64,000 bases of DNA. Source: Naegleria gruberi (taxonomy: Eukaryota). A model generated the notes under the pieces. It did not search any database. It was not told the origin of the DNA and worked only from the letters and a program-made list of their open reading frames with translations. The DNA lies in NCBI GenBank assembly GCA_000004985.1, contig GG738874.1. One strand, given 5' to 3'. The position numbers and the translations under genes were made by a program. Numbering within the stretch: position 1 is the stretch's first letter; each line of letters opens with the position of its first letter. This document shows, in pieces, positions 28,501 to 62,079 of this stretch.

Positions 28501-31076
28501 GCAATAGTTTCAATTACATTGTTGGAGAGTTTTCTAACTCTATTATTGCCACTATCAGCAATAAAGATATTATCAGAACTATCCATAGACAATGAAGAAG
28601 GATAATTGAGATAAGTTGTTGTGGCCAAACCATCACCATTAAATTCATAGTTTGAGTCAGATCCAGCAATTAATTGAAGAGAACCATTATCATACTTGCT
28701 TATCATATTACCATGGGCAATATAGATTTCATCACTGCTGGAAATAACAATACTAGCAGGACTTGAAACCTCAACAAGTGTGGTAATATTTCCATCGAGG
28801 CCAATTTTTCTGATTCTATCATTTCTGGTATCGGCAATAAACATTTCACCAATTGAATTGATAGCAATAGAATTTGGGGCATTGAGAGAGGCACAACAAG
28901 CCTTTGAACCATCTCCAGCAAAAGTTGGTGAACCATTTCCAGATACAGAAGTAATAATTCCATTAGAAATCTTTCTAATTCTATTATTGTTAGTATCTGC
29001 AAAATAAATATCACCATTAGAGGATATGTGCAAACCATTTGGATTGTTCAACAAGGCATCGGTAGCGCTAATGTTGTTTCCATTATAACCTGTAACGGTT
29101 TGATTACCAGCAATAATAGTGACAACACCATCTGGAGACAATTTACTGATTGTGCTAAGTCCTGTAAAGTAAATATCATCTCCAAATTCATTGACACTGG
29201 TTGGGAACTCTACCACATTAGTAATAGTAGAAATGATACCGGTTGTTTGATTGATCATTCTAATTCTATTATTTCCACTGTCACAAATGTAAATGTTGCC
29301 AGAAGTCTTTGAGGCAAAAACACCAGATGGATAGAAGAGAATTGATGAGGTAGCAACTTGTCCATCTCCTGCAAAATTATTGAGGATACCACCAGCAACA
29401 CGCTTAATAATACCATTTGAAAGAATCTTGTAAATGACATTTTCTACATTAAAGTAGGTCTCTCCTGTACCGGCAATGTAGAAGGAAGCAGATGGATTGG
29501 AAATTAATGTTGCATTGGCCAATTTACCATCCAAATCAGTTAATGTGTTTACAGGTTCTGACGAACCAATGACTGTAGAAATAATGCCTTGTTGATTAAT
29601 TCTTCTAATTCTATTGTTACTTCCATCGGCAATGGTAATAATATCGGCTCCATCCTTTTGGGCGACATGAACATGATTAGGTGAGAGTGCAGACTGAATT
29701 GCTGGGCCATTATCTCCCAAATATGTTGGTTGTCCATTACCAAAAATTGTTGAAATGATTCCTTCCTCAGTAATCTTTCTAATTCTATTGTTCATGCAGT
29801 CGGCAATAATAATCTCCTCAGCAGAAATAGCAATGAATGAAGGATTGTTCAAAGTTGCAGCAGTAGCTAAGCCACCATCTCCAATTGGTCCGATATTAGA
29901 TCCAGTACCGGCTACAATGGAAATTGTATTGGTTGCTGGATTTAACATTTTGAGAATGTGTTGGGATTGTTCCAAAAAGTAGACTTCACCCTCCTCACCA
30001 ACAGCAATACTGGTTGGAGCAATGGTTGCATTGAGAGCATCAATAGGAATTGGTTGGATTGGAGAACCTGGAATTGGTTGAGCACCTGAACCTGCAACTG
30101 TTGTAATAATTCCATTGACAATCTTTCTAATGTAAAACTTGTCGGCAATGTAAATTTCTGGGATGGTATTAATTGGAGCATCTTCCATTCTAAAAAGAGC
30201 AAGTCCTGTTGGTTGAGAAAGGAGAGCATCAGTAGCATTGATACCATTGCCAAAGTATCCCTCTTGTCCACATATACCAGCAATGGTAGTGATGGTCTTG
30301 TTGGAAATTGATAACTTTCTAATTCTAAAGTTTTGAGTATCTACAATATAGATAAACTCCTCTACACCTTCCATTGAATAGACAATTTGACTTGGAGCAG
30401 ACAATTGTGCATCACTCAAAGGAGAAGGAACATTATCAGAACAAATAGAGTCCAAATTGTTAGTGGCAAATGTTGAGAGTGTACCATTAATATCAATCTT
30501 TTTGATAGACCAAGTTGGATTGTTTTCAACAAAGTAAATATCACCAGTCATTAACGAAACTGTGACTGTGTTTGGATTGGTCAACTTGACAGTATTAGCT
30601 GGAAGGCCATCAGTGTTTTCATTAGATGAACCTGATGCTGCAACACCAGCAATGGTTGATACAATAGTAGGAATGTTATCGAAAACTTCTTGTTCAGGAT
30701 CAACAATAACACCAGTCCAATTATAAGTTAATTTTCTGATTAAATTATTTGCTCTGTCAATAATGATCAAATCTTGAGGTCTTTCATCTTCTACCAAATT
30801 TACAAGAGGTGTAGGAATTGTTCTAGGATAGAATGCAATAGCGTGTGGATGACCGATTGGTGTATCAAGTCCATTATAGCCATCACCAAGATTACCTCCA
30901 GCGATGGTTTCCAATTTGTATGTAGGAGCCAAGTTGTTATCTGAAGATGTTGCATTGATGGTAGTAGTACTAAACAACAACATCATCAAGAGAAGGCTAC
31001 TAATAAATAAAGATAATAAATATTCGTGATGAGAAAAAGATTTTACTCTCCCTGCAGAGTCGAAAAACCTCTTCAT
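25530..31076 (-). CDS. Giant type-I surface protein of 1848 aa. It has a signal peptide, ~20 NHL (six-bladed beta-propeller) repeats, ~16 tenascin-type EGF repeats, a Ser/Pro/Thr-rich stalk, one TM helix, and a 25-aa cytosolic tail.
   Basis: The N-terminal hydrophobic leader is LLSLFISSLLLMMLLFS. Many NHL-type units recur, for example IYIADSGNNRIRKI, FIADTRNDRIRKI, YFADTNNNRIRKI. The EGF units follow C.G....VCSG.G.C.....C.C..GY.G..CE..C. The stalk is TPQPTPSPNKPTPSPNKPSTSSNKPTSSS. The TM helix is YIVVLVGFILMIIIAIVIGVGYYIY. Confidence 0.85.
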   Translation of the reverse strand: MKRFFDSAGRVKSFSHHEYLLSLFISSLLLMMLLFSTTTINATSSDNNLAPTYKLETIAGGNLGDGYNGLDTPIGHPHAIAFYPRTIPTPLVNLVEDERPQDLIIIDRANNLIRKLTYNWTGVIVDPEQEVFDNIPTIVSTIAGVAASGSSNENTDGLPANTVKLTNPNTVTVSLMTGDIYFVENNPTWSIKKIDINGTLSTFATNNLDSICSDNVPSPLSDAQLSAPSQIVYSMEGVEEFIYIVDTQNFRIRKLSISNKTITTIAGICGQEGYFGNGINATDALLSQPTGLALFRMEDAPINTIPEIYIADKFYIRKIVNGIITTVAGSGAQPIPGSPIQPIPIDALNATIAPTSIAVGEEGEVYFLEQSQHILKMLNPATNTISIVAGTGSNIGPIGDGGLATAATLNNPSFIAISAEEIIIADCMNNRIRKITEEGIISTIFGNGQPTYLGDNGPAIQSALSPNHVHVAQKDGADIITIADGSNNRIRRINQQGIISTVIGSSEPVNTLTDLDGKLANATLISNPSASFYIAGTGETYFNVENVIYKILSNGIIKRVAGGILNNFAGDGQVATSSILFYPSGVFASKTSGNIYICDSGNNRIRMINQTTGIISTITNVVEFPTSVNEFGDDIYFTGLSTISKLSPDGVVTIIAGNQTVTGYNGNNISATDALLNNPNGLHISSNGDIYFADTNNNRIRKISNGIITSVSGNGSPTFAGDGSKACCASLNAPNSIAINSIGEMFIADTRNDRIRKIGLDGNITTLVEVSSPASIVISSSDEIYIAHGNMISKYDNGSLQLIAGSDSNYEFNGDGLATTTYLNYPSSLSMDSSDNIFIADSGNNRVRKLSNNVIETIAGGIGDGLLATQAALSSVSSFVVSASSEIYIADNVANRIRKVSAEGVISTIAGNYNYGYNADNIKATLASLANPTSVALSPEGEVFISDFASHRIRKVSNDGIISTVLEGSESDDTIYYPRSVSVSPKGDFIVVCNGDSTIIRFNLKEENATISTIAGKTGINGFNGEVVLDSRLALLNRPLFADISPDGSTVYIADSGNSRVRKLTAMCPKGYRLNDAAECEKLPRICFGLLPSNETVCSGNGVCESYNNCSCFAGYYGEQCELFGCNGIPKEDPNVCSSQGVCISANNCTCNNGYYGNNCEHYDCFGVEHSNPSVCSQAGLCSLPNKCECRDGHSGETCQYFTCFGKQSNDSTVCSGHGVCSSGNNCTCKPGYYGNECENYGCFGLAHNDEKVCSSHGVCEAIDKCVCEQNFNGSSCEFYYCNGVEHADPNVCSANGYCTAPGRCECKEAYEGVNCESFTCYGISSTNTSTVCSGHGVCSSGNNCTCQAGYSGKECQNYQCFGVLNSNKQVCSGNGICKSVDKCECQAGYYGNVCEHFDCFGIMHNDTQVCSSKGVCSKPDLCECTEPYYGHTCEAFKCHGIPSNDTNVCSGHGVCSSGNNCTCVLGYEGENCESFSCNGLDKNDPQVCSGNGICSSPNKCNCTSGFSGNNCENYYCYGIHYSDPNVCSGNGVCESPDSCQCAYGYNGPQCATNIICPPGDTSLFCSVVNNTALKNLTETNIIDVQDMEDMESFNITFTKFKDIFITLPASISDYLETILRDEEIPLNMASSVSDIRSVNSKVLSPAVTFIITQQGNNQRVELNNLPDPILLNMHNIVVPTSALARHSVALSRIACAYYDKATDSWKTDRVTTTILSSQQGATASTYSVVCSTTHWPSSFALIAQPITPPTSSSGKTPQPTPSPNKPTPSPNKPSTSSNKPTSSSAGTIITEKGDKSYIVVLVGFILMIIIAIVIGVGYYIYKKKQGQTAPQNQNDGNGNYATLTEEP

Positions 31077-35520: not shown

Positions 35521-35868
35521 TATTGTTTAAAATTAATATTGTTGTTATTGTTCTAATAAATAAATTGTTGTATTATTTGATGATATGATGAAAATTGTCC
35601 CGCACTGTAATTTGTTATTTTATCCAAATCTTTTGGTAGTAGAAGAGCGTGCGGGTAATGGCGGAGATTATGATATTTTTTTCTGTTGAATTTTTACACT
35701 TTTTTATGGATTTTTAAAATTGTAAAGATTCCAAAATAAATCATGAAGGATTTTGGATGGATATGGAATGGACACAGGTGGATTGGAGGTTGTATTTGAG
35801 GATTTTTGAGGTTTAGCATTTGGGAAGTTTCAATTTGGGTTCAAAAATTGTTTGAAATTTTAACAAAT

Positions 35869-37875
35869 TTAGATATAATCCAAATCTGAATATTGTGAAC
35901 TAGTCAAAATGTTGACATCCGTGAAATGATTATTCTCCAATTTGTAAAGTAATCTCCTCCCCATCAAATTTTCAAACTTTTTATCCAAATTCCAATTCAC
36001 AAATGATTCTCTCACATTAAATAACATTGAATTCATTACCTGATTGACATCAAATTCATCCAAAGTATTAATGGCATGGAAAGTGATTGAAGATTCGTAT
36101 TCTGCTTCACTTTCTCCATAGTAATGTGAATGATAGCTGATTGAGTATCGATTTTGGATTTGTTTGAATCGTTCGAGGATGTAATTGAAAACTTGTTTTG
36201 GGTTTTTACGATTTCCATTGAAATCTGAAAAGTATTGAGAAAGTGCATTGGATGCTTCACCTTTGGAAACCTTTCGAATGAAGGAATCGACCTTTGTGAA
36301 GAGAACAATCTTTCGAATAGATGATTCGCCAAGTTCCTTCTTGGAAAACACTTGTTCGAAATAGGTTAAACTATCTAGCAATCTATTACCTGGTTTGGTT
36401 TCTGATTTGGAAGGTGAAATTAAATCTTCAAAACTTAACATGTCAATATCCGAAAGTGAAACTGTGAATATAATACATTTCAAATTTTGTTTTTCCAAAT
36501 ATGGAAGATAGAGAGCTCGTTTTTCTTTCCATCCAAAAGTTTCCAATAACAATAGCTTTCTAGTCACCAATTCTCTATTTTCCAAAGTTGGTTTTGTAAT
36601 ATCCTTCACTGGCATACTTTCCAAAGATAGAATTTTAGCCCTCACAATATCTTGTTTGGTCAACTCGGTAATTTTCTTCAATTTTTCAACTCTGCCATCA
36701 TTTAAAAAGTATTCAATATTCTCTCCCAATAGTGGAATTGGAGTTTTCCTCGAATTTCTCTCTCTATACGATTTTTGGACGAAAGGATGTTTCCACAATT
36801 GATCCATCACTTTGAAAAATTCCTTCTGCTTCCATAATCGTCTTAGAATTTGTTGAGATGATGAAACTGAGTTGTTATCTGATGAATTAACTGTCATTGA
36901 AGAACTTCCATTATTCGAATTTTGGCTTGTTTGAGGATTTAATGAGAAAATATTCGAAGGAGATTGGTTTCCATTCGGTGATGTCTTTCCATTCGTAGAA
37001 TTCACATTCGTATTCATTGAACTATTCGATAAATAATTAATTCTTGGAGAAACTGACTCTGGATGAATCATATTTTGAAATTGTTGAATTAAATCTGAAA
37101 ATTGTTGAGTAAATTCTGGTGAAGAATTTTGAATTTCCTCAAAATTGACTTCATGTTGTGAATGTACAAGGATTTTTAAACAGTAAATGCAATAGAGAAG
37201 TATTGAATCTCTATAGAATTTCAATTCTTCAGTTTTGTAATTGTAATCTCTCAAAATTTCCATCAAAGTTGCTAAAATAGGAAACTGTCAGAATTCAAAA
37301 TTATATTGACACTTACTTTTACCGCTATCTACACCTCCAAGAATGAGAACTAATTTACAATCTTGTAATCTTTTCAAATGTTCTTGATGTGAAATGCCAC
37401 TAATCAATTTTGAATAAATATTGAACTGGGTAGCTCTTGGAGTTTTCATTGCAGAACTTGAACTTCCAATATTTAATAATGAAGTTGATAAAGATTTACT
37501 CTTCCTGTCAGAATTGATGACTGACAGTTGTTCGACATTTGTTAGATTGAGTGTTGGCACTTTCGACACTTCGGAAGATTTTGTATTTTTCAAAGCATCA
37601 AAAACAGGATCTTCTGTTTTGACATCCGAAGTATTATTTGATGTTATCATGGATGTCAAAATAAATCTGCCAACTGACTGGCTTCTTTGATGTTTGGCAG
37701 GTTTTAATCCTTCCCTTCCGTTCTGTTGTTGTAAATTTGCAAGATTTGAATTCGAATTATTTAAAGTAAACGAAGACGAATCTACTTCTATTCGAATCAG
37801 ACTTTCAATTCCATTTGATAGAGAATCTCCAGCATTTTGTTGGTCAAGATCTGGTGATGAAAGTTTTATTCCCAT
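35869..37875 (-). CDS. Heterotrimeric G-protein alpha subunit. Two exons, about 37317..37875 and 35869..37271, with a 45-nt phase-1 intron at 37272..37316.
   Basis: The start is MGIKLSS. On the minus strand the intron reads GTAAGTGTCAATATAATTTTGAATTCTGACAGTTTCCTATTTTAG. Splicing restores the G-alpha P-loop LILGGVDSGKTTLMMEIL. Without splicing, the frame stops 11 codons after SGKSK. Downstream, YLPYLEKQNLKCIIFTVSLSD matches the switch II/G3 region and IVLFTKVDSF matches the NKxD region. Confidence 0.85.
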
Positions 37876-38216
37876 TTTTTTTGATTGTTTTCTACGACCT
37901 GTCAGTGACCTAGTCCACCAATCAAATAATTAATGACATTTCGCAGATTATCAACGTTTATCTCTGCAGTGAACACCATGCAGTTTTCAACACCATCACT
38001 GCAGAGATTATCTGGTACATCAGTAAAAAAACTGTAAATTGTTGCTGATTGAGTAATTTCCTCTTTGAGAATCTTTCAATAATTACAATACCAGAAATTG
38101 TTATAAGCAGGGTTCTCCACGTGGTTATAAGTTGCCAAGGTTGTGGCGATTTTTGCGCATATCCCAAGCGAATATCTTAAAGTTGTGCGGCATTTCATCA
38201 AAAAAAACGACTCTAC

Positions 38217-39834
38217 ATGACTTTTGGCATTTCATTGATGTCTTCAGAGACAATGGCCAATTCAACAATCTATGCTAATCAGACATATTGTGATGAAGCT
38301 CTTTTCAACTTGCCGTCATCAATATATTTGGACTCTATTCCACAAATCATAAACGGAGTTTGTCCTGACACCATTTTCACACCAATTTCATCGAGCTTGG
38401 TCCTATTGAACCATCTTATCATTGTCTTTGTGGGGCTAGCTGGTGTCATTTACAAACGCAACAATGCTCATATAAGATATAGAAGTCCAGTTTATTTGTA
38501 TTGGAGTATGTTTGCTAGTACTCTCCTTGTGGGTATTAGTTGTTTGAGGTTTATGATTGGGAGGACTATCTTTCCATGCCCGTTGCATGCTGTTACCTTC
38601 TTTATATTTCCACAAGTTTTAATGATGCCGTCCATTCTGAAATGTTTTAGAGTGTTTCTTCTATATAGGATAAATTTGGAAAAAAGTAAAGTTCACAATG
38701 AGGCTAGATTTTCAATTGCTGTTAAAGAAAAAGGCATAGAATTGGAGTCAAAGGAATTATCTGAAGGCTCTCCTGCTGTTGGTACGCCTGAATTGAATAC
38801 CAGTTCATCAAATATCATGTCAATTGCCACCGATGATGACAGATCAAGTGAAGCAGGTGAAGCACTGTCTGAAATTTCCACAACCCAAACTAGAAAAATC
38901 AAAATCCTTGAATTTCTAGCCAGTACCAAATTTGCCACCATCATTTACATATCCTTACTCATTTTCCATCTTTGTTTTTGGTTAATTTTTTCAGGAATTG
39001 ACCAAGCAATTTCCAATTCAGGAAATCCAGGCAAAACCATCGTTCTACAAGTTGGTTTACTAGATTTCACCAAAGGATGTGTCTCCTCATCCAATGCAGT
39101 CCTCCTCGTAGCAGCTCAATGCATCTTTTACTTGATTATTGAAATAATCGTCTTTGTCTTGTTTGCTTTTTTCACAGATCGAGATACTTGGGGAATGAAG
39201 AGAGAAACCTTTGTTCTGATTTCGTTTCAAGTGGTGGCTGCCATTTTATACATTGCTTTGGGGAGTATTGGGATTATTAAGACTCTGGTTGATTATTTTG
39301 TGGCGTATGCTCATGTGATTTTGATTTATGTTGGATTGGAATTGTGTGTGAATGTTGTGGCACCTGTTGGATATGCATTTATGATGGATTGGAAGGAGGG
39401 AAGAGGAGAGGAGATGGATACAGTTGGAGGGTTTTTGCAGGATAAAAAGAATGTTGAAAATTTGTTGGATTTTGCCAGAAGAAGGTAATTATTTTTTAAT
39501 TTTTTAATTTTTTTTTATTTTAATTTCCAAAATTAGTTATTGTCCAGAAAATGTCTTATTTTGGAGAGATGTTCAAAGATTTAAAAAATCCAACAAGAAG
39601 AATAGAAACAAAATGGCCCAAGTCCTCATTAACACCTACATGAAGCAAACTTCTCCTGTCGAATTGAATTTACCAAGTGAATTGAGTAAATTAATTCCAA
39701 ATTTAGAAATTCAAGCTAATGAAACAACTCCAGTCGATGCAAATATCTTCCAACAATTTGAATTGCATTGCTTGAATGATTTGTGTGATATTTTCACAAG
39801 ATTTAAGGCCTCCACCAAATATGGAAATAATTAA
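38217..39834 (+). CDS. Seven-TM receptor fused to a C-terminal RGS domain. Exons about 38217..39484 and 39537..39834, with a 52-nt phase-2 intron (GTAATT...AAATTAG).
   Basis: Seven hydrophobic helices are separated by a Ser-rich loop. The spliced junction LLDFARR|SYCPENVLFWRDVQRFKK reconstitutes the RGS core (SEENL.FW...FK pattern). The RGS C-terminal helices are AQVLINTYMKQTSPVELNL and IFQQFELHCLNDLCDIFTRF. Confidence 0.8.
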
Positions 39835-39866
39835 TATGTAACAATTTTATTTTTTTATGGAATAAT

Positions 39867-41369
39867 TTACAATTTACTGGCAAATCCTGAGAATGAATTT
39901 GTTTCAGATGAATGGAAATTAATTTCATCACGAATGGAATTGGACCAAACCATAGGTTTACCTGTCAAATCTCTGACATCTGTAAATAATAGTTTAGAAT
40001 AGTTTCTACTGGATGCTTGAGTAATCTTCATCAATGGACTCTTTCTTACTTGTTTAGGATCCAAGAGTTTCAAATCTTGGAAGCTGTAATACAATTTGGC
40101 GAAACTCAAGTTTGAGTTTTCATACGAATCTAGAATAAACTTGTTGAAATCGTAATCACCCAATGTAACGAAGATAATATTTGCTACTTGTGCATTGTTC
40201 TCCAACTTTGAGTTTTCCAATTTGGAAAAGACAATATTCTTGACATCTGAAACTAGTTTCGAATATTGTGAACGATTCAATGGCATTGGACCTTCATGGC
40301 TTTCATCCATCGAATGAGAAACAATGTTGTTCACCATGAAACTTGGAATTCTTTCACCAGTTTCTTTCATTTCTGCATATTTACACTTCCATAATTGGAA
40401 AGTAAAGTTTTCTTTCGTATTTACATAACAACCAGCAAATGAATCATGTAAATAAACACAATCTAAATCCTGAATCAAGAATCCATCATTACCATAAACA
40501 TCTTTCATTGTAGAAACATAATCTTGCACATCATCAATTTCCCTCACATTCGTCTCGTTTTTTTCTTCACCTTCTCTCTTAACATTCATACCAATAAATG
40601 TCAATTTCTGATCACCAACGAACATGCCACAATTCCTAGTCATACCAACACTCTTCATATTATCTTCAAAGATGTTACAGTATCCATATCTAGCACCCAT
40701 CCTTTTTTGGATAAGTACTGCCAAATACATCATTAAATATTTGGAATCAAAGTTTGCTCTCATCCTCGTATTAACCCATCCACTGCCATTAACTCCTACT
40801 TTCATTTGTTTTCCATTGATGAAGGCATCTTTGATGGAGAAGGCATAAATGCTTGCTGGAATGGCTTGGAATAGGTCAACTGAAGAAAGTGGAGAATTGA
40901 GTGGTGTTGCATCTTGTGGAAGTTCTTTAATGTAGACGATGAAGTGATGGGCTGAATGTTTGAATTGAGAGTATTGAGACCATCTTTCGTATAGATTCTC
41001 ATGGACCTTTAGCATGGAAACAAGTTTCTTATCGTTGAGATAGTAAAAGTATTCGTCGAAACATTCCTTTTGTTTGTCGATGGCAGCTAATTCTTGTTGG
41101 AACCATGATTGGAGAGGGGAGTTGTTTTGATTCGTCTTGTTTCCAATATCTTTCATTGTCTTGATTGATGCGCTGTGGTAAATCTTGGCCAACATGGGAT
41201 TTTGTGGATGTAAGAGAAAGACCAAATAGAAAGGTTTCTCGCTCACTGTATTCTTCGAATCTAAACTTGGCGAAACTACTTTAAAATCTTTAGTGTAGAA
41301 TAAGTATTGATGAGTGAGCAACATGTCCACATGTTGTTCTGTAATAACATTCTGATAAGCTGCCTCCAT
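39867..41369 (-). CDS. Hypothetical protein of 500 aa ending in -SKL, a canonical peroxisomal PTS1 tripeptide.
   Basis: Real ATG. The C-terminus is ...GFASKL. No recognisable domain. Confidence 0.55.
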   Translation of the reverse strand: MEAAYQNVITEQHVDMLLTHQYLFYTKDFKVVSPSLDSKNTVSEKPFYLVFLLHPQNPMLAKIYHSASIKTMKDIGNKTNQNNSPLQSWFQQELAAIDKQKECFDEYFYYLNDKKLVSMLKVHENLYERWSQYSQFKHSAHHFIVYIKELPQDATPLNSPLSSVDLFQAIPASIYAFSIKDAFINGKQMKVGVNGSGWVNTRMRANFDSKYLMMYLAVLIQKRMGARYGYCNIFEDNMKSVGMTRNCGMFVGDQKLTFIGMNVKREGEEKNETNVREIDDVQDYVSTMKDVYGNDGFLIQDLDCVYLHDSFAGCYVNTKENFTFQLWKCKYAEMKETGERIPSFMVNNIVSHSMDESHEGPMPLNRSQYSKLVSDVKNIVFSKLENSKLENNAQVANIIFVTLGDYDFNKFILDSYENSNLSFAKLYYSFQDLKLLDPKQVRKSPLMKITQASSRNYSKLLFTDVRDLTGKPMVWSNSIRDEINFHSSETNSFSGFASKL

Positions 41370-42403
41370 TTTCTTTTTTTTGTGTTACCAATAATTATTC
41401 GAAACAGAGAAACTGTATTAAGGTGGATTGCACTGGATTGTTCTAGTTGATTGGGTGGTGCCAATGATTATCTCTGATTTCCTTTTTTATCATGTTTAAA
41501 AACAATCTTATAGATAAAAACGAAAAGATTCTATTGATTGAAGAAAAATTTTTACAAGCTGGAAGATCTAGTAATCAAAGATCAGCAGATCTATTGGTTG
41601 ACCAAAAGATTGACGTGTGCTATTCATTTTAAATAGTGTATTGTTTGTGAGACGGTGTTACACTTTCAAAATCTCGCGAATTAATTGTATTGGCTATTGG
41701 ATGTTGTAAATTCAATGTCCAATTACAAAAAGTGGACGGTTGAACATTCATTTGATGATGATTAGAAATTTTTAACATTTGTGTGGTTTTTGTCTGTCGT
41801 TCATTCTACTTGATCCTTAATGCCGCAGTTGCTCTTGTCAATGTGGAGAGTTTCTGCAGGACTTGTCTGCGTTACTAATCTGGATCATGAGTTCTTTGAA
41901 AAATTAGTTTGCTCTTCTGTGCATATAGTTAGTTTGTATGTCAGACAACTCTTTCATAGGAATCTTTATGTTGGGGAAATTTGTTCTTCTATTGATCATG
42001 GCATGAGATGATCATCAAGATTACATGAAATGTAAAGGATTTGATCAAGGATATATTAGAAATGAAGTCTTTAAGATATAAAAGAAGAAACTGGTCTTTT
42101 TGGAATTAATTAAATAATTATTTACAAAATTCTCAATTAATTTTGCATTTCTAATTTTCAAACAAAGCTGTAAAGGTGGATTTGACTCAAATATTTCAGA
42201 ATTTCACAAACAAGAACCTAAAATAATTGAAATGCTATAGTACTAATTGTCATGATAATTTCCTATTATGTATTCTGTTGCCGTAGGATTGACCTATTCG
42301 AATTCTTTCGGCTAACACTAAAAAGGGATATCCGTGTCTTGTTAGCGACCTCACAAATCAAATTTATTATTTAAACACAAAACTTAAAAACAACAACATC
42401 AAC

Positions 42404-45020
42404 ATGGTTACCCAACTCGTTTTTACTTTTCTCTTCTTTTTCTTGTGTTTGGTTTCTTCTTCCTTCTCCTTTCCAACAAAAATTATTCACTTTACAGAAA
42501 TTAGTACAACAACACAAAATGTAGAAATTTACGGAGCATTCAACTACTTTTCGATATTTACATGGAAAGGGCTGGGAATTAAATCACTTTCACAATTAAA
42601 CATTTCGTCCAATGCACAACTTTCCGAAATATTTTCAAAATATCAAAGTTATGCATTACAACGAATAACAACAAACCAGCATGACAACCAGCAGCAGCAG
42701 AATAGTAAATTCACAATTGTTTGCTCTCACTTGTATCCATGTCGTAGAATTTGGAAAATTCTCGACTTGAATAGTAATTATTTCGAATTACTAATAATAC
42801 CCAACATGTATCCTGATTGTGTCCGTGGATCAGTATTGGAATTGGGTGATGGATTTTTGGCAACTTCAATGGATTTTGCTCGACTTGTTAGAGTGAATCA
42901 AGTTGCAACGAGGAAGGGTTTATTTAGAGAACATTATGATAATAGTATGATACAAATAGATACAAGGTATGATCCTTATGATTTCTATTCGATTCCACTT
43001 GTGCCCACACAATTACTTCTGTCTGTGCATGCAGCAGCAGCCATCATCAGCAACAAGTGTTGACATGTCAACAATATCTGAGAATGAAATCAGATCATTC
43101 TCAGATATTGTTGAGGATCATCTTCATTTCATTAACGATCAGGGATTGAGTTGTAAAAGTAGTCAAATTCATGATTCGTATGTTTGGGATAAATTACATG
43201 GTCTAGTAGATGTAGGATCGAGTCATTTGACCTTCCTCAACAATCTCACAACATCTATAGTGGGATTTCCTGTCAATATTACATATAATAGAGATCCATT
43301 AGTAGAATATAGAACATTTATAATTGAGGGAGGAGGAAGAAATGTCTTTAGACTAAGTACTCCAGATTATGTCAACACATTGTTATGGAATTCTACATGT
43401 CACTTTTGTTCATCCACTGAATGTTTGGCAGAATCTATGGCAAGTAACGATTATTTCATTTTCGTATATTCTGTACCTAGTATTATATATTATTTGAGTT
43501 TTTTTGGATTGGGAATGTTCAGAAAACCATCAATGAGAAATAGATTATTAATTCCTTATATATTACCAATATGTATAATTGTCTTTGAAGTTTGCTGGTC
43601 GGCATTCATTGTGAATACTTGTAAATCAGTATTCTCAATTGTTTCCTTGTTAATTCTTGGATTTTTTACAATTCTAAATGGAATTGTTGTTCTTCGAATT
43701 AAGGGAGCACAAATATTGTATCATAGAATGATTGGGAGGGAAAATAGTTCCAAATTAATCAAATTACTAGTTTCGGAAAGGCTGGGATGGATATTATGTA
43801 TTATCATTCCAAGTATTTTCATGTTGATTTATGGAATACCTCCATTGTTTGTTTCCATCTTTGATTTCCACAAGATTTTATACATTAATAATTTGATATT
43901 TGTTGCCTTTGCATGTATTGGATCAATTACTGCCTTGTTGTATAACACTATTGATTTACTATTTAATTGGAATCATCTCCGAGAAAAAGGTTTGTTAATT
44001 ATATTATAATAATATTTAAATTAATAATTACTATAATTATTATTATTATTATTATTATTGTAAATTAATTTAGGAATATTTTACTATTTGTTTTTCCAAG
44101 ATCCTCTCTATCTTCGATTAGATACTCTATCAATATCCTTAACAATTGTTCCCCTAGCCATCTATATCGGAATTAATGTCATCTACTCACTTTCCTACCA
44201 ATCTGTTGCTAGTAATATTATACGATTAATTATCTCAACATGGCTCTTACTATCATGTGGCGGCTTTGCAATGATTGTTGAGATGGTTTACATGTTATTA
44301 AACTCGAGGAAAGTATCATCCCCGAATAGAGATTCAAAAACTGATGATATCAAATATCTACTATTGAAGAATGAAAAGTTTACCTCTCTTTTCAAAGAGT
44401 ATTGTGAAGGAGAATTAAGCGTTGAAAATTACTTCTTCTATCAGGAATTGATCAATATTCAGAATGCAAATTGTGTTTCCAAAGAACAATTACAAAAGTT
44501 GGAATCCAAATTCATCAACACTTATGCAGTATTCCGTGTAAATATTTCAAATAATTGTAGGAAGGAATTCTACAAGACTTTAAAAGAGGTTAAGCAATCT
44601 ACAACCTCTAGTTTTGTTCTTGATCGTTATCTTGAAGAGAAACCAAAAAGTGATCAAGACAGGAAACGAGAATTTAAAAGCTTAATTGTACATCAATCCC
44701 AAGATAACCTAATGGAGCATGTTGACATTTCAGAGAATGTTGTAAATACTCCACTCTCATCACCACCAATAAGGAGTCACAGCAGTAGCAATGCTTCTTA
44801 TCTGAAGGATAGTTTGAGTATTAAAGTTTGTGGCACGATTGAAAATTTACTGCTCGGCATTCAATTGAATATTCAAGAGACTTTCACCCGATTCCAAAAT
44901 ACTAGAGAATACAGACAATGTCTTGCTGAGAGCAGTGAATTATCAGCAGTGGCCTCTACATCAACTACGCCCAACTCCAACAACAGGAAGAACCTTGCAG
45001 TAAGATTTGATGATGAATAA
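42404..45020 (+). CDS. Second 7TM-RGS fusion receptor. It has a signal peptide and a ~190-aa N-terminal ectodomain. Three exons, about 42404..42966, 43058..43989 and 44074..45020.
   Basis: The signal peptide is MVTQLVFTFLFFFLCLVSSSFSF. The first intron (GTATGA...CAACAAG) is tentative. The second intron (GTTTGT...(ATT)n...TTAATTTAG, phase 1) is firm and joins HLREK|G|IFYY. TM helices span exons 2 and 3. The RGS core is LFKEYCEGELSVENYFFYQELINIQN. Confidence 0.7.
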
Positions 45021-45175: not shown

Positions 45176-46798
45176 TTAAAAATCGTATTTCTTCTTTTTG
45201 AGTTTATCAACCTTAATCTTATCAATCTTCATTTCACGTTGGAAAGCAAGAGATTGTTTGAATCTGTGGTGAGTATCCATCATTACCAAACAAGTTTCCT
45301 TTTCCAAAATATTGAACATATCTTCTGGTAGTGTTTCAATTTGCTTATCGTTGTAACTGTCAAGCTTATCCTTGACAGCATCAGTAAGAACATGAGAAAT
45401 ATTGACAGCCATATCACCAGTAACTTCCAAAAATTCAGTAAATATCTCAAAAGCAACTTCATACTTTTTGGCTTCAACTTCAGCATATTCTTTTTCAAGT
45501 GGGGAAAGCTTCTTTTTTCCAGAGTGGGCTGAATCACCTGAAACACCTGAAATTTCACTAGAAACATCACTTTGTACATTGCTTTCTCCGAATAATCTCA
45601 TTTGCAAGTCAATGGAACGTTCGCACAATGATCTATAATAATGAATCTTTTCCAAGAGTAAAAAGTTTTCAGTTGACTTTTCCTTTTCACAATGTATCTT
45701 AAATAATGTTCTCAATCCATCATCCTCCATAGTGTCCATCAACATGACAGCATTGGCACGACGAATCTTCTCCAAATATAATGAGTCACGGTTAATGGCA
45801 TAAGTAAAGACAAATACAATGATTGGCAAAATGACGAATAGTGAAACGGCAATGACAATCAATTGAACCAAAGTAATGGCCAGAACATTCTTGTCTTTGG
45901 TACTTTCTTTCTCTTGTACAAAGGTGACCAATTTATCGAGACCTTCTTGGAAAGTTGTCTTGATTGTATTGTATGATGTTGAACTCAGTCTTGTTTTGGC
46001 ATCTTCTGGTTGTGTTCTGATAATTAGTAATATCTGAGAATTTGCTCCATCCCAATTATTTGAAGCCTCAACAGTTGTAGAGTTAAACATGGTCTGAATG
46101 GAAGCATCATCCACGTTCTTTAAAATTGTTTGTAAGGTTTTTTTCAGTGTTTGAGTAGAGTTTTTATACTCTTCCTGAACTAGTAATCTCTGATCTTCTG
46201 ATGAGTAACCAGTATAAGTATACTTTAAAACTAGAGCATTGGAGCTTTCAAAGATGGAAGTAACTTTACCAACAGCAATTAAAATATCGGTTGACTTGGT
46301 TGTGGTAGCAACGAATGCAGCAACAGCTACGCCAGCCAATACTAACAAACCAATAACTGTCACCATCATACCTAGTAAACAAGCCAATTTCATTGAAGTT
46401 AGCTCAACAACACCACAACATGTTCGCAAAGTAATTTTACTCTGACTGAAAGAACTTCCAGACCTTCCACTTTCGCTATGATTCACAAAACCAACTTGAG
46501 ATTGAGCAGCTGTTGTTTGTTTTGCTGTTGTAGTTGGTGATGCAATAGTGACCTTCTTTGAGTTATTTGTTGATGGAAGTGCTGTTATATTCATTGTGTT
46601 ATTTGGTTTGTTGTTGTCGAGTGGAGTTGTTGATTGTGGAAATGATGGTGAAGAGGACGTTGTTGGATTATTTGCTATTGTTGTTGTTGTATTGTTATTA
46701 TTGTTGGAGAGATAGGAAGTGGCATTATTGGCTTCGTTTGAGGCAGGAGCTAGTGAAGGTGAGCCTGTTGTGGAGGCTGTTGATGGTGGTGTATTCAT
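45176..46798 (-). CDS. Two-TM RGS-domain protein of 540 aa with a single exon. Paralog of 9691..11277.
   Basis: The RGS core LEKIRRANAVMLMDTMEDDGLRTLFKIHCEKEKSTENFLLLEKIHYYRSLCE is near-identical to the paralog. TM1 is KLACLLGMMVTVIGLLVLAGVAVAAFV and TM2 is LAITLVQLIVIAVSLFVILPIIVFVF. The N-terminus is Asn/Thr/Ser-rich. Confidence 0.8.
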   Translation of the reverse strand: MNTPPSTASTTGSPSLAPASNEANNATSYLSNNNNNTTTTIANNPTTSSSPSFPQSTTPLDNNKPNNTMNITALPSTNNSKKVTIASPTTTAKQTTAAQSQVGFVNHSESGRSGSSFSQSKITLRTCCGVVELTSMKLACLLGMMVTVIGLLVLAGVAVAAFVATTTKSTDILIAVGKVTSIFESSNALVLKYTYTGYSSEDQRLLVQEEYKNSTQTLKKTLQTILKNVDDASIQTMFNSTTVEASNNWDGANSQILLIIRTQPEDAKTRLSSTSYNTIKTTFQEGLDKLVTFVQEKESTKDKNVLAITLVQLIVIAVSLFVILPIIVFVFTYAINRDSLYLEKIRRANAVMLMDTMEDDGLRTLFKIHCEKEKSTENFLLLEKIHYYRSLCERSIDLQMRLFGESNVQSDVSSEISGVSGDSAHSGKKKLSPLEKEYAEVEAKKYEVAFEIFTEFLEVTGDMAVNISHVLTDAVKDKLDSYNDKQIETLPEDMFNILEKETCLVMMDTHHRFKQSLAFQREMKIDKIKVDKLKKKKYDF

Positions 46799-50950: not shown

Positions 50951-53152
50951 ATGTCTTCACTTGCTACCAGGGCACAACTGTATAATCCTGTTGGTATTTT
51001 TGTTTCATCAAATAATGAAGTTTATATTGCTGATTATAGTAATCATAGAATTAGAAAAATATTAAAAAATGGAAATATTGCAACAATCGCTGGAAAGGGA
51101 ACTTGTGGCTTCAGTGGTGATAATGGTCCTGCAACAAATGCACAAATTTATTATCCTTCTAGTGTTTTTGTTTCATCAAATAATGAGGTTTATATTGCTG
51201 ATCAAAGTAATCACAGAATTAGAAAAATATTAGAAAATGGAAATATTGTAACAATTGCAGGGAATGGAATTGGTGGCTTCAGCGGTGATAATGGTCCTGC
51301 AACAAATGCACAAATTTATTATCCTTATAGTGTTTTTGTTTCATCAAACAATGTAGTTTATATTGTTGATTATGGTAATAATAGAGTTAGAAAAATACTA
51401 GGGAATGGAAATATTGTAACAATTGCAGGAAATGGAACTTCTGGATTCAGTGGTGACAATGGTCCTGCAACAAATGCACAACTAAATAATCCTGTTGGTG
51501 TTTTTGTTTCATCAAATAATGAAGTTTATATTGCTGATCAAAGTAATCACAGAATTAGAAAAATATTAGAAAATGGAAATATTGTAACAATTGCAGGGAA
51601 TGGAACTGGTGGATTCGGTGGTGACAATGGTCCTGCAACAAATGCACAACTATATATCCCTTATAGTGTGTTTGTTTCAAACAATGAAGTTTATATTGTG
51701 GATTATGGTAATAATAGAATTAGAAAAATATTAGGGAATGGAAATATTGTAACAATTGCAGGGAATGGAACTTCTGGATTCAGTGGTGATAATGGTCCTG
51801 CAACAAATGCACAACTGAATAGGCCTTCTAGTGTGTTTGTTTCAAACAATGAAGTTTATATTGCTGATCTTAATAACCATAAAATTAGAAAAATATTAGA
51901 AAATGGAAATATTATAACAATTGCAGGAAATGGAACTAAGGGATTCAGTGGTGATTCACCATTTGATATTAGAATGTATCCTCATATTGGAAATAACTTA
52001 TTTACTGGAAGTAGTATCTTGTATTCTAAAATACAAGTTCATAATTTGTGCAAACATTCAAGAGATCAATTATTTGGATTGCAAATTTATGGATTCATTC
52101 CATTCATTGAGAAAATTTCACCACAGTTTAGTAATATTTTGAAGAATGAAAAAATACTTTGTTTGATGAGTTCATCACAACAAGAAATTATTCAAAAATT
52201 AATTGACTCTTTGATATATGATAAAGATAAGGTAATGTTTAGCAAAGAAGAAACGTTGGATGTTTTATTCATTTTGGGTTTATTCAAGAATGGTGAATTT
52301 ATTGATTTGAAAAGATCATTGACAAGTGGGTTTGTGAACTCACTCACATTAGAAAATCTTCTTTTGAAATGGGAAACAATTGAGATTTTACTGAAAATTT
52401 GCAAGGAAGAATTCAATGTTCAAAATTACATTCTTGATCATTTGAATAACTATTGTATTGAATATGCTGTTGTTCAAATGAAAACCAAAGAAGGAAACGC
52501 CTTATTATCTACCCTTCCAATAATTATGAGAAATGGTGCTACCATATTTCCAAAATTGATCATTACTCAACCAACTGCAATTAATATTGAGGAAACAATT
52601 GAGATTAAACCACAAACAATTGAATCATTATATAATGACATGAAAACAAGTGATGTGAAAATCAAAATGGGACAAAACAAATACCTATATTGTCACAAAA
52701 CTGTATTGAGTTTTTCAAGTACATTCTTTAATGCACTTTTTGACAGCGGATCTTGTTTCAGTGATTTAAGTGATGACGGAGTATTCACACTAAACGAACC
52801 AGAAGATTTGGAATTATTGGAAATTGTGATTAAATATTGTTATGGAATTTCAATTGACAAAATTGATCCTGTTAAAAGTATGGGATTACTTGATATGGCA
52901 ATGAAACATGAAATTCCATATCTGGTTGATTATTGCAAGAATAGCTTTAATCTATCTATTGATAATTACTTTAATATGCTTGAAGTATGTGAAAATTATT
53001 TTGATTTACAACTATTTGAGCCATGTTTCAGAGAATTTGTCAAATTTAGCATTGCCAACAGAAAACAACTTTTCAGTGATCGCGATAGAATTTCCAAATT
53101 ACCTGAAAAAGTGTTGCAAGAAATGGTCTTTTCGTTTTCTCAGGACTTTTGA
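50951..53152 (+). CDS. NHL-repeat (6 units) plus BTB/POZ domain protein of 733 aa. It has no signal peptide, starts mid-NHL-unit, and may be a subtelomeric chimeric gene.
   Basis: The NHL units are near-identical 55-aa repeats (NGNIVTIAGNGTSGFSGDNGPATNAQLNNPVGVFVSSNNEVYIADQSNHRIRKILE). The C-terminal BTB spans KYLYCHKTVLSFSSTFFNALFDSG...LELLEIVIKYCYGISI...MGLLDMAMKHEIPYLVDYC. Confidence 0.6.
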   Translation: MSSLATRAQLYNPVGIFVSSNNEVYIADYSNHRIRKILKNGNIATIAGKGTCGFSGDNGPATNAQIYYPSSVFVSSNNEVYIADQSNHRIRKILENGNIVTIAGNGIGGFSGDNGPATNAQIYYPYSVFVSSNNVVYIVDYGNNRVRKILGNGNIVTIAGNGTSGFSGDNGPATNAQLNNPVGVFVSSNNEVYIADQSNHRIRKILENGNIVTIAGNGTGGFGGDNGPATNAQLYIPYSVFVSNNEVYIVDYGNNRIRKILGNGNIVTIAGNGTSGFSGDNGPATNAQLNRPSSVFVSNNEVYIADLNNHKIRKILENGNIITIAGNGTKGFSGDSPFDIRMYPHIGNNLFTGSSILYSKIQVHNLCKHSRDQLFGLQIYGFIPFIEKISPQFSNILKNEKILCLMSSSQQEIIQKLIDSLIYDKDKVMFSKEETLDVLFILGLFKNGEFIDLKRSLTSGFVNSLTLENLLLKWETIEILLKICKEEFNVQNYILDHLNNYCIEYAVVQMKTKEGNALLSTLPIIMRNGATIFPKLIITQPTAINIEETIEIKPQTIESLYNDMKTSDVKIKMGQNKYLYCHKTVLSFSSTFFNALFDSGSCFSDLSDDGVFTLNEPEDLELLEIVIKYCYGISIDKIDPVKSMGLLDMAMKHEIPYLVDYCKNSFNLSIDNYFNMLEVCENYFDLQLFEPCFREFVKFSIANRKQLFSDRDRISKLPEKVLQEMVFSFSQDF
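51000..51950 (+). repeat. DNA-level tandem repeat with a ~165-bp period and ~6 copies. It encodes the NHL units of the 50951 gene.
   Basis: Blocks such as aatggaaatattgtaacaattgcagggaatggaa...ggtgataatggtcctgcaacaaatgcacaa recur almost verbatim. Confidence 0.75.
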
Positions 53153-54179: not shown

Positions 54180-54300
54180 TGAATATCATGATGTTATAAT
54201 CTATATTTCCAATTTGGAAAATGTTGCAATGTCAATGTTTAATTGAAATATTGCCATCATACCAATAATTGATTTTATAATATAAAAATGGTATTATACA
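54180..54300. repeat. Subtelomeric dispersed repeat, family A. The second copy is at 56226..56340.
   Basis: Shared string ...caatttgg(a/g)aaatgt(t/c)gcaatgtcaat(g/a)(t/c)ttaattgaaatattgccat(c/a)ataccaat(a/t)attgatt... Confidence 0.7.
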
Positions 54301-54303
54301 CTA

Positions 54304-54952
54304 NNNNNNNNNNNNNNNNNNNNNNNNNNNNNNNNNNNNNNNNNNNNNNNNNNNNNNNNNNNNNNNNNNNNNNNNNNNNNNNNNNNNNNNNNNNNNNNNN
54401 NNNNNNNNNNNNNNNNNNNNNNNNNNNNNNNNNNNNNNNNNNNNNNNNNNNNNNNNNNNNNNNNNNNNNNNNNNNNNNNNNNNNNNNNNNNNNNNNNNNN
54501 NNNNNNNNNNNNNNNNNNNNNNNNNNNNNNNNNNNNNNNNNNNNNNNNNNNNNNNNNNNNNNNNNNNNNNNNNNNNNNNNNNNNNNNNNNNNNNNNNNNN
54601 NNNNNNNNNNNNNNNNNNNNNNNNNNNNNNNNNNNNNNNNNNNNNNNNNNNNNNNNNNNNNNNNNNNNNNNNNNNNNNNNNNNNNNNNNNNNNNNNNNNN
54701 NNNNNNNNNNNNNNNNNNNNNNNNNNNNNNNNNNNNNNNNNNNNNNNNNNNNNNNNNNNNNNNNNNNNNNNNNNNNNNNNNNNNNNNNNNNNNNNNNNNN
54801 NNNNNNNNNNNNNNNNNNNNNNNNNNNNNNNNNNNNNNNNNNNNNNNNNNNNNNNNNNNNNNNNNNNNNNNNNNNNNNNNNNNNNNNNNNNNNNNNNNNN
54901 NNNNNNNNNNNNNNNNNNNNNNNNNNNNNNNNNNNNNNNNNNNNNNNNNNNN
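54304..54952. other. Assembly gap (N-run).
   Basis: 649 N. Confidence 1.
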
Positions 54953-55035
54953 TTGAAATTGATAGAAACCTCATTATATGATGTTAATAACATATTGTAT
55001 CAATTTGGTATTGAATCTCATTGTCCTTAGGGTAC
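54953..55035. repeat. Subtelomeric dispersed repeat, family B. Other copies are at 56770..56862 and partly at 62040..62090.
   Basis: Shared string tgaaattgatag(a/g)aacctc(a/t)ttatatgatgtt(a/t)ataacatattgtatca(a/g)tttggtattgaatctcattgt(c/t)cttaggg. Confidence 0.7.
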
Positions 55036-56862: not shown

Positions 56863-57458
56863 ATTTTGTAAAATCAACATGTACCTTCCTGTGGCGCCAT
56901 TTCTAATTATTATGATATGAAATTGAATTCTACATCATTATAGATCATCTATATCATGTTGGTAAAGTTTCAAAAGTGGTTCTTTTTCAAGATTTTATCC
57001 TTTTCATATCTAGTTGACCATGTGTGATTGAGGGAAGAAATCTATAAATATGAAAGTCAAAATAAATTTGATATTCGATGTTTACTCATTCAAATGGAAC
57101 ATTTTCATATCAGGGTTCAATATGTTTTGATGAGAAACTCAAAAGTTATTGTTGACCTCTTTTACCTCACAACTTCCCTTTTCACTTGATACTTTTATAC
57201 CTACAGACTTGAACTTTTGAAATTTGATATGAAAGTGATTATAGATGTTGTTAATGATGATATATACTATATAATCTCATTAAAGGATTTTGAAATTATC
57301 ATTCTTCCTATGGTTTCATTTTAACAATTTTAATCTGACACTATTTATAAAGTTAATATTTTATAAATTGAAAAACTAAATATAACACGTTGTTCTACTC
57401 ATCATTTACAATCGAGGTGATATAAAATTTAATGATATTTGAATAAGTTTATAATTTN
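56863..57458. repeat. Subtelomeric tandem element, copy 1 (~600 bp). It runs into the N-gap.
   Basis: About 90% identical over its length to 62080..62668. Confidence 0.85.
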
Positions 57459-61945: not shown

Positions 61946-62079
61946 TGAAAGTGAAAATAAACTTGATTTTCTATCTCTACTCATCGAATGGAGCATTTTC
62001 ATGTATATATTGTTGGTTGAAGTGATGTATTTGATAGAGTTGGTCTGACTTGTCTTTCCTTTAAGTCAACCATAAAATA

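What the first reader, a model, noticed from the sequence alone, without database searches (positions are those of the whole stretch)
38217..45020. Two adjacent 7TM-RGS fusion genes whose RGS domains are completed only after splicing
In both genes the RGS domain is split from the 7TM body by a short AT-rich intron. In 38217-39834 the unspliced ORF stops 2 codons into the intron, and the RGS core appears only in the spliced frame (LLDFARR|SYCPENVLFWRDVQRFKK). ORF-based annotation would therefore report a receptor and miss the RGS fusion. A receptor carrying its own GAP domain implies self-limiting or ligand-regulated GAP signalling of the AtRGS1 type.
Basis: partly seen in the sequence, partly recalled or inferred. 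Interest (0 to 1): 0.6.

Follow-up and report, generated by a model that had tools for sequence, protein, structure and literature searches.

The report
Two mis-annotated Naegleria receptor-RGS genes
The window is Naegleria gruberi DNA, and the flagged region holds two genes for seven-helix membrane receptors fused to a G-protein "off-switch" (RGS) domain, a protein type already described in Naegleria, so the only new result is that both public gene models are wrong.

Summary
The window is Naegleria gruberi. Gene 1 (38217-39484 + 39537-39834, 521 aa) is a solid 7TM-RGS fusion. The spliced product scores 54.2 bits on Pfam RGS (cutoff 23.9). The 52-nt, 8% GC, GT-AG intron sits inside the RGS domain. 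Intronless paralogs read straight through the junction (DFARRSYC).

Gene 2 (42404-45020, about 800 aa) is also a 7TM-RGS, but two details were wrong. Its RGS lies wholly in the last exon, and the 84-nt intron separates TM5 from TM6. The tentative intron 42967-43057 deletes family-conserved coding sequence. The real +1 frame change lies within 43021-43060 and is unresolved: atypical short intron, frameshift or assembly error. Its own Pfam RGS score is sub-threshold (16.1 bits), but its family of 122 homologs is clearly RGS (profile vs RGS17, E 1.2e-10). Public model XP_002676081.1 skips TM1-6.

The genes are not adjacent; a minus-strand gene lies between them. Bosch et al. 2022 described 28 7TM-RGS proteins in N. 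fowleri with GAP activity, so these are new members of a known kind. The value is re-annotation. Interest is low.

The parts
38217..39484 (+). Gene 1 exon 1. It encodes an N-glycosylation-rich N-terminus, seven TM helices and the first ~16 residues of the RGS domain. The start could be Met1 (38217), Met8 or Met13 (38253, used by the public model).
39485..39536 (+). Gene 1 intron: 52 nt, GTAATT...ATTAG, phase 2, 7.7% GC. If retained, the ORF stops at TAA 39486-39488.
   Evidence: GT and AG are kept in the 98%-identical second strain L003. Intronless paralogs P0002 and P0003 read through 'DFARRSYC'.
39537..39834 (+). Gene 1 exon 2: the rest of the RGS domain (SYCPENVLFW...TRFKAS) and the stop codon.
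   Evidence: Pfam RGS 54.2 bits on the spliced product. The family HMM matches hmm 445-544, colinear with exon 1. PDB hits to RGS17 and RGS10 align across the junction. Only 1 substitution in 298 nt against the second strain, and the protein is identical.
42404..43021 (+). Gene 2 coding piece A: signal peptide (MVTQLVFTFLFFFLCLVSSSFSF) and the first part of the extracellular domain, in frame with 42404.
   Evidence: ORF. A family HMM built without gene 2 matches hmm 12-162, ending at ...YDPYDFYSIPLVPTQLLL (about nt 43021), E 1.2e-19.
43021..43060 (+). Gene 2 unresolved +1 frame change (52% GC). It could be an atypical short GT-AG intron (37 nt 43021-43057; 58 nt 43025-82 or 46 nt 43059-104 would reach just beyond this zone), a real 1-nt frameshift, or an assembly error.
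   Evidence: Enumeration of all frame-restoring GT-AG pairs. HMM end points of frames A and B. Composition. The three confirmed introns nearby all end in TTAG and are 6-27% GC.
43061..43989 (+). Gene 2 coding piece B: the rest of the ectodomain (conserved NSTCHxCSSxxC motif) and TM1-TM5. Frame-B homology to the family begins at about nt 43041, inside the overlap zone.
   Evidence: ORF 42969-44009. Family HMM matches hmm 157-466, E 7e-59. Hydropathy. The public model P0006 skips this whole stretch.
43990..44073 (+). Gene 2 intron: 84 nt, GTTTGT...ATTTAG, phase 1, 6% GC. It lies in the loop between TM5 and TM6.
   Evidence: Splicing restores the family spacing 'KG xxx (F/Y)LFF(D/Q)DP'.
44074..45020 (+). 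Gene 2 exon 3: TM6, TM7, an RGS domain (about 44343-44918) with an insertion of about 61 aa relative to the family consensus, and a Ser/Thr-rich tail.
   Evidence: 122 homologs, with TM6-TM7-RGS aligned near their C-termini. Family HMM matches hmm 463-676, E 2e-60. 26 of 36 family members hit Pfam RGS. The family profile hits only RGS chains in the PDB, best E 1.2e-10. G-alpha contact residues are kept.

Best explanation
Both loci are members of the large Naegleria (heterolobosean) family of seven-transmembrane RGS proteins, which are receptor-like membrane proteins whose cytoplasmic tail is a GTPase-accelerating (RGS) domain for G-alpha subunits.

Gene 1 is a compact 521-aa version: short glycosylated N-terminus, 7TM, RGS. 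One 52-nt intron interrupts the RGS domain at FARR|SYCPEN.

Gene 2 is a long version of about 800 aa: signal peptide, about 300-aa ectodomain, 7TM, an RGS with an internal insertion, and a tail. One clear 84-nt intron lies between TM5 and TM6. One unresolved +1 frame change lies in the ectodomain.

Inferred mechanism, from the published N. fowleri and Arabidopsis work and not tested here: the RGS domain, held at the membrane by the 7TM body, accelerates GTP hydrolysis on fast-exchanging ('self-activating') G-alpha subunits and keeps them off. An extracellular cue sensed by the 7TM or ectodomain would change that GAP activity or remove the protein from the membrane.

Shown here: the gene structures, the 7TM topology and GPCR-like fold of gene 1, RGS homology, conservation of G-alpha-contact residues, and the errors in the public models. 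Inferred: GAP activity, G-alpha partners and ligand regulation.
For: Organism and public models.

Gene 1:
- Pfam RGS 54.2 bits against a 23.9 cutoff.
- PDB RGS17 E 1.4e-5, with the alignment crossing the junction.
- The paralog HMM matches the two exons colinearly.
- Intronless paralogs exist in N. lovaniensis and in a metagenome.
- In the second strain the same splice gives an intact ORF, with 12 synonymous and 7 nonsynonymous codon differences and an identical RGS exon protein.

Gene 2:
- 122 homologs of 600-950 aa from N. gruberi, N. fowleri, N. lovaniensis and Willaertia magna.
- The three coding pieces match the family HMM colinearly: hmm 12-162, 157-466 and 463-676.
- The family is RGS.
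- Signal peptide plus 7 hydrophobic segments.

The two families are related from TM4 through the RGS (hhalign 98.6%, E 1.4e-15). The equivalents of RGS4 E87, N88, N128 and R167 are kept in both genes. Published biochemistry for the class in N. fowleri: PMC9283941.
Against: There are no transcript data, so every junction rests on homology and splice-signal logic. Gene 2's own RGS score is below the Pfam threshold (16.1 bits). Its single-sequence structure model was useless (pLDDT 39.7). Its reading frame is broken once, with no convincing intron, so it may not make a full-length protein. The gene 1 7TM model has only moderate confidence (pLDDT 60, pTM 0.55, 5-sequence alignment). The G-alpha-like gene next to gene 1 lacks the residues an RGS acts on, so the substrate is unknown.
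Confidence: 0.85

Rival explanations
1. Gene 2 is a pseudogene, or a recently inactivated copy. The +1 frame break at 43021-43060 is a real frameshift, so only a 219-aa secreted fragment would be made, or nothing at all.
For: No AT-rich, TTAG-ending intron is available in the zone where the frame must change. That zone is 52% GC and every candidate intron has weak signals. The RGS is sub-threshold on Pfam. No close ortholog was found; the best homolog is 35% identical.
Against: Apart from this one break, three long frames (219, 346 and 310 aa) stay open in 30% GC DNA. All match the family HMM strongly and colinearly. The G-alpha-contact residues and conserved family motifs are intact. The assembly is a draft with a 4.5-kb N gap in the same window, so a 1-nt assembly error is also possible.
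Confidence: 0.25
2. The RGS-encoding segments are separate genes or transcripts: a stand-alone receptor plus a small soluble RGS protein, as the public and metagenome gene calls imply.
For: The public model of gene 1 stops at 39488. A prokaryote-style caller reports a separate 127-aa RGS ORF in the second strain. ORF 39613-39834 has its own ATG.
Against: That ATG lies after the conserved SxxEN..FW core, so a stand-alone product would lack the N-terminal third of the RGS fold. The first 16 RGS residues are in exon 1. Paralogs encode the same architecture in one uninterrupted ORF. The intron is a canonical GT-AG with 8% GC, and both exons match one family HMM colinearly. In gene 2, TM6 and TM7 are on the RGS exon, so it cannot be a soluble RGS.
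Confidence: 0.03
3. Intron retention in gene 1 is a regulated switch. The unspliced mRNA makes a GAP-less 7TM receptor (stop 2 codons into the intron) and the spliced mRNA makes the receptor-GAP.
For: Retention gives an immediate in-frame stop and an otherwise intact 7TM protein. Intron retention is described as the most prevalent mode of alternative splicing across non-animal eukaryotes (abstract of PMC6142364).
Against: There is no transcript evidence. Paralogs lack the intron altogether, so it is not a conserved regulatory feature. Almost any short intron whose length is not a multiple of three terminates the frame when retained.
Confidence: 0.07

Closest known systems
Naegleria fowleri 7TM RGS proteins (Nf 7TM RGS1-4 and 24 others; Bosch, Jeck & Siderovski, J Biol Chem 2022, PMC9283941)
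   Same: Same genus and the same architecture: a variable ectodomain, 7TM and a C-terminal RGS. Gene 2's exon 3 is homologous to an N. fowleri member (FDP41_001505, 'RGS domain-containing protein', E 3.7e-21). One member of gene 2's family carries a GPS motif, as the paper describes for some Nf proteins.
   Different: These are N. gruberi loci with no close ortholog (32-39% identity at best). Neither is annotated as 7TM-RGS. Gene 1 has almost no ectodomain. Gene 2 has an insertion of about 61 aa inside the RGS. No biochemistry exists for them.
Arabidopsis AtRGS1 (plant 7TM-RGS)
   Same: An N-terminal 7TM followed by a cytoplasmic RGS box. The presumed role is a membrane GAP for self-activating G-alpha (PMC3386157 and PMC9283941).
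   Different: Sequence homology of the 7TM part to AtRGS1 was not tested here. Gene 1's predicted 7TM resembles class C GPCR domains most. Glucose- and phosphorylation-driven endocytosis is known only for the plant protein.
7TM-RGS proteins of Trichomonas, chytrid fungi, filastereans and ichthyosporeans (de Mendoza et al. 2014, PMC3971589) and fungal MoRgs7
   Same: The same domain fusion, recurring across eukaryotes.
   Different: These are different lineages. Common descent of the 7TM parts is not established.
Human GPR158-RGS7-Gbeta5 complex (PDB 7ewp, 7she)
   Different: In GPR158 the association is non-covalent, whereas here the RGS is fused. The similarity is in fold only (11-12% identity), and the query model is only moderately confident.

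Membership tests
Naegleria / heterolobosean 7TM-RGS family | Seven transmembrane helices N-terminal to the RGS domain | tested here: met
Naegleria / heterolobosean 7TM-RGS family | C-terminal RGS domain detected by HMM (gene 1) | tested here: met
   PF00615 at 54.2 bits against a 23.9 cutoff, residues 407-518 of the spliced product. PDB RGS17 E 1.4e-5.
Naegleria / heterolobosean 7TM-RGS family | C-terminal RGS domain detected by HMM (gene 2) | tested here: inconclusive
   On its own it scores 16.1 bits, E 0.015, below the cutoff, and only profile positions 5-86 match because of an internal insertion. The best PDB hit is RGS5 at E 0.45. At family level the result is positive: 26 of 36 homologs hit PF00615 (best 1.9e-9), and the family profile hits 35 PDB chains, all RGS, best 1.2e-10.
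Naegleria / heterolobosean 7TM-RGS family | Sequence homology to family members in other Naegleria species over both the 7TM and the RGS | tested here: met
   Gene 1: N. lovaniensis C9374_003184 at E 2.4e-69 over 91% of the query. Gene 2: N. fowleri FDP41_001505, N. lovaniensis C9374_011226 and Willaertia magna proteins. All three coding pieces match the family HMM.
Naegleria / heterolobosean 7TM-RGS family | G-alpha contact residues of a catalytically competent RGS box (RGS4 E87, N88, N128, R167; numbering from my own knowledge of the RGS4-Gi-alpha1 structure, 1AGR) | tested here: met
   A MAFFT alignment with RGS4 shows E, N, N and R kept in gene 1 and gene 2. D163 is D in gene 1 and E in gene 2. 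S85 is C in gene 1 and S in gene 2. The RGS4 sequence was recalled from memory and checked only for consistent numbering.
Naegleria / heterolobosean 7TM-RGS family | GAP activity on a Naegleria G-alpha subunit | not testable with these tools
   Shown for N. fowleri 7TM RGS2-4 only (PMC9283941).
AtRGS1-type plant 7TM-RGS | Domain order 7TM then a cytoplasmic RGS box | tested here: met
AtRGS1-type plant 7TM-RGS | Sequence homology of the 7TM region to AtRGS1 | not tested
No plant protein appeared among the 5 hits for gene 1; the sources of most of the 122 hits for gene 2 were not looked up.
AtRGS1-type plant 7TM-RGS | Acts on a self-activating G-alpha, with ligand- or phosphorylation-induced endocytosis relieving the GAP | not testable with these tools
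   Self-activating G-alpha5 and G-alpha7 exist in N. fowleri. Nothing is known for these two N. gruberi proteins.
GPCR fold (class C-like 7TM) | Structural superposition on solved GPCR 7TM bundles | tested here: met

The most novel reading that the evidence does not exclude
Gene 1 may form a dedicated module with the divergently transcribed, catalytically degenerate G-alpha-like gene 342 bp upstream (35869-37875, minus strand). That gene lacks the equivalents of Arg178, Gln204, Thr182 and Gly183. In this reading the receptor-RGS binds a GTPase-dead G-alpha as a stable partner or effector rather than as a GAP substrate. Retention of the 52-nt intron would toggle the receptor between GAP-bearing and GAP-less forms. 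More broadly, the 64-kb window (2 G-alpha-like, 4 RGS and 2 PAS-cyclase genes) could be a co-regulated signalling gene neighbourhood, which is unusual for a eukaryote.
Probability: 0.07. Interest if true: 0.5.

Novelty: new member of a known kind. Interest (0 to 1): 0.2.

Why it matters
The practical result is a corrected annotation. Two N. gruberi 'predicted proteins' (NAEGRDRAFT_68807 and NAEGRDRAFT_49902) are really 7TM-RGS receptor-GAPs. One public model lost its RGS to a missed 52-nt intron. The other lost six of seven TM helices to a false 1.2-kb intron. Censuses of G-protein signalling parts in Naegleria that rely on these models, such as counts of 7TM-RGS against GPCRs used to argue how G-protein activation evolved, will undercount this class wherever short introns were missed. 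The finding does not change the biology of the class, which was already established in the sister species N. fowleri.

Tried and rejected
1. It deletes family-conserved residues and is 44% GC.
2. I enumerated every frame-restoring GT-AG pair around the gene 2 frame break. Only a 37-nt, a 58-nt and a 46-nt candidate fit the homology limits, and none resembles the three confirmed local introns. The break is left unresolved.
3. A single-sequence AlphaFold model of gene 2 exon 3 gave pLDDT 39.7 and was unusable.
4. The word-indexed protein search found nothing for gene 2, although the exhaustive HMMER search found 122 homologs including its own public model. Those two negatives are misses of the word-indexed search.
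6. The afdb50 fold library was unavailable, so AtRGS1's predicted structure could not be compared.
7. Contig look-ups for the N. gruberi public models P0001 and P0004 returned nothing, so intron positions in N. gruberi paralogs could not be checked.
8. The idea that the neighbouring G-alpha gene is the RGS substrate is weakened. A formal alignment to Gi-alpha1 shows Lys for Arg178, Trp for Gln204, Leu for Thr182 and Glu for Gly183.
9. The 1500-aa 'ORFs' on both strands at 57.4-62.0 kb are runs of N, that is an assembly gap.
Full report
**Source and setting.** The window is Naegleria gruberi nuclear DNA (30.5% GC). The first exon of the first flagged gene is 100% identical to 'predicted protein [Naegleria gruberi]' XP_002676080.1 / NAEGRDRAFT_68807. 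The public models of both flagged genes can be rebuilt exactly from window coordinates. An ENA metagenome contig (L003) is 98% identical to window 35749-41120 and serves as a second strain for comparison.

**Gene 1, 38217-39834 (+).**
- The ORF 38217-39488 ends ...AGA AGA AGG TAA, with the stop at intron bases 2-4.
- Removing 39485-39536 (52 nt, GTAATT...ATTAG, 7.7% GC against 31-37% in the flanking exons) gives a 521-aa product.
- That product scores 54.2 bits (E 2.3e-14, cutoff 23.9) on Pfam RGS over residues 407-518. The junction follows residue 422, so the intron lies inside the RGS domain, in the conserved 'F.r.eyS.EN..FW' segment. Solved RGS17 and RGS10 domains align straight across it.
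- An HMM built from the four homologs, without gene 1, matches exon 1 (positions 9-447) and exon 2 (445-544) colinearly.
- All four homologs read 'DF(A/S)RRSYC' continuously. Two of them, from N. lovaniensis and from a metagenome, are single uninterrupted ORFs.
- In the second strain the GT and AG are kept, and the same splice gives an intact 519-aa ORF. There are 12 synonymous and 7 nonsynonymous codon differences and one in-frame 6-nt deletion. The RGS exon has 1 substitution in 298 nt, against 11-22% divergence in intergenic DNA.

**Annotation of gene 1.** The public model is the unspliced ORF 38253-39488, 411 aa, with no Pfam domain. The metagenome gene caller reports a 414-aa ORF and a separate 127-aa RGS ORF.

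**Gene 2, 42404-45020 (+).** This is also a 7TM-RGS, but the description needs correcting.
- The last coding block (44076-45017) has 122 homologs at E<=1e-3. Most are 600-950 aa, with the matching TM6-TM7-RGS region near their C-termini. They come from N. gruberi, N. fowleri, N. lovaniensis and Willaertia magna.
- Of 36 aligned family members (35 homologs plus gene 2's own last coding block), 26 hit Pfam RGS (best 1.9e-9). The family profile hits only RGS chains in the PDB (35 hits, RGS17 at 1.2e-10).
- A family HMM built without gene 2 matches three window pieces colinearly: frame A from 42404 (hmm 12-162, E 1e-19), frame B (hmm 157-466, E 7e-59) and exon 3 (hmm 463-676, E 2e-60).
- The product has a signal peptide, an ectodomain of about 300 aa, seven hydrophobic segments, an RGS with an insertion of about 61 aa, and a tail.
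- On its own the gene scores only 16.1 bits on Pfam RGS, below threshold, because the insertion breaks the match.
- The intron 43990-44073 (84 nt, 6% GC) is well supported, since it restores the family spacing KG-xxx-(F/Y)LFF. However, it separates TM5 from TM6. The RGS is complete within the last exon, contrary to the finding.

**The first junction of gene 2.** The tentative junction 42966/43058 is wrong. The supposed intron encodes 'YDPYDFYSIPLVPTQLLL', which aligns with the conserved 'NP.DF..IPL.P' motif of the family, and it is 44% GC. The +1 frame change must occur within about 43021-43060. Only weak GT-AG candidates of 37-58 nt exist there. These are unlike the three confirmed local introns, which are 45-84 nt, 6-27% GC and all end in TTAG. 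I cannot decide between an atypical intron, a true frameshift and an assembly error. The scaffold carries a 4.5-kb N gap nearby. The public model XP_002676081.1 (322 aa) uses donor 42966 and an acceptor inside exon 3 (44212). It thereby deletes TM1-TM6.

**Relation between the two genes and functional residues.** Profile-profile comparison aligns the two families from TM4 through the RGS (98.6% probability, E 1.4e-15), so they belong to one superfamily. The genes are not adjacent, because NAEGRDRAFT_49901 (39867-41369, minus strand) lies between them. In an alignment with RGS4, both keep the equivalents of E87, N88, N128 and R167, the principal G-alpha contacts (residue roles from my own knowledge of the RGS4-Gi-alpha1 structure).

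**Mechanism.** By homology, the most likely function is that of a membrane-anchored GAP for G-alpha subunits, whose activity or location responds to an extracellular cue. This matches the proposal for AtRGS1. In part it has been shown for N. fowleri, where RGS domains of three 7TM-RGS proteins accelerate GTP hydrolysis on, and bind the transition state of, several G-alpha subunits including self-activating ones (PMC9283941). None of this was tested for the two N. gruberi proteins.

**Comparison with the known, and verdict.** 7TM-RGS proteins are known in plants, Trichomonas, several opisthokont protists and fungi (PMC3386157 and PMC3971589). Bosch et al. 2022 reported 28 of them in N. fowleri. 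The two loci are therefore new, mis-annotated members of a known kind. A specialist would not be surprised by them. The useful output is the corrected gene structures, together with a warning that short missed introns hide members of this family in the N. gruberi annotation.

Noticed in passing
window 35869-37875 (-), intron 37272-37316: This is a G-alpha-like gene (Pfam G-alpha 127.5 bits) lying head-to-head with gene 1, with 341 bp between the two start codons. A 45-nt GTAAGT...TTTTAG intron restores the P-loop GGVDSGK|TT. The 653-aa product starts MGIKLS (a myristoylation-type motif) and has a ~170-aa low-complexity N-terminus. Aligned to Gi-alpha1 it has Lys for Arg178, Trp for Gln204, Leu for Thr182 and Glu for Gly183. 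It is therefore probably GTPase-dead and RGS-insensitive.
   Followed up: partly
window 5199-6362 (-): A second G-alpha-like gene (Pfam G-alpha 150 bits, MGGKLST start, P-loop GNTSSGKTT). By eye its switch residues are also non-canonical. It shows no detectable tblastn similarity to the other G-alpha-like gene.
   Followed up: partly
window 45176-46798 (-) and 9709-11277 (+): These are two paralogous RGS genes, 50% identical over 322 aa. Their Pfam RGS scores fall just under threshold (22.1 and 22.7 bits against 23.9) because of an insertion in the domain. Two predicted TM segments were seen in the first (45176-46798); hydropathy of the second was not examined. The first is NAEGRDRAFT_68810 and lies tail-to-tail with gene 2, about 155 bp apart. 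The second needs an intron or frame change between 10038 and 10300.
   Followed up: partly
whole window: Signalling genes are clustered: 4 RGS-domain genes, 2 G-alpha-like genes and 2 tandem PAS-adenylate/guanylate cyclase genes (11656-17136 and 18514-22512, both minus strand) in 64 kb. N. gruberi is reported to have 44 G-alpha genes (PMC8584482), and its genome is about 41 Mb (my own knowledge). That gives roughly 0.07 G-alpha genes expected per window, so the clustering looks non-random and at least partly reflects local duplication.
   Followed up: partly
window 25530-31076 (-) and 50951-53152 (+): The first is a large NHL-repeat/EGF (teneurin-like) protein of 1848 aa. The second is an NHL-repeat plus BTB protein of 733 aa.
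   Followed up: no
window ~57450-62000: This stretch is a run of N, an assembly gap of about 4.5 kb. The 1517- and 1528-aa 'ORFs' listed on both strands there are artefacts.
   Followed up: yes
L003 (ENA ERZ929261 contig k127_333974), matching window 35749-41120: A metagenome assembly contains a Naegleria gruberi-like strain 98.1% identical to the window, with the same gene order: G-alpha-like gene, gene 1, NAEGRDRAFT_49901. Its prokaryote-style gene calls split both intron-containing genes into separate ORFs.
   Followed up: yes
window 54288-54993: Three overlapping ORFs of 222-230 aa lie on both strands of the same ~700 bp. This may be low-complexity or repetitive sequence. I did not examine it.
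   Followed up: no
tool behaviour: The word-indexed protein search returned no hits for gene 2 or its 346-aa ORF. The exhaustive HMMER search, run on gene 2's last coding block, found 122 homologs, including a 99%-identical public model and full-length family members. Negative results from the indexed search should not be read as absence.
   Followed up: yes
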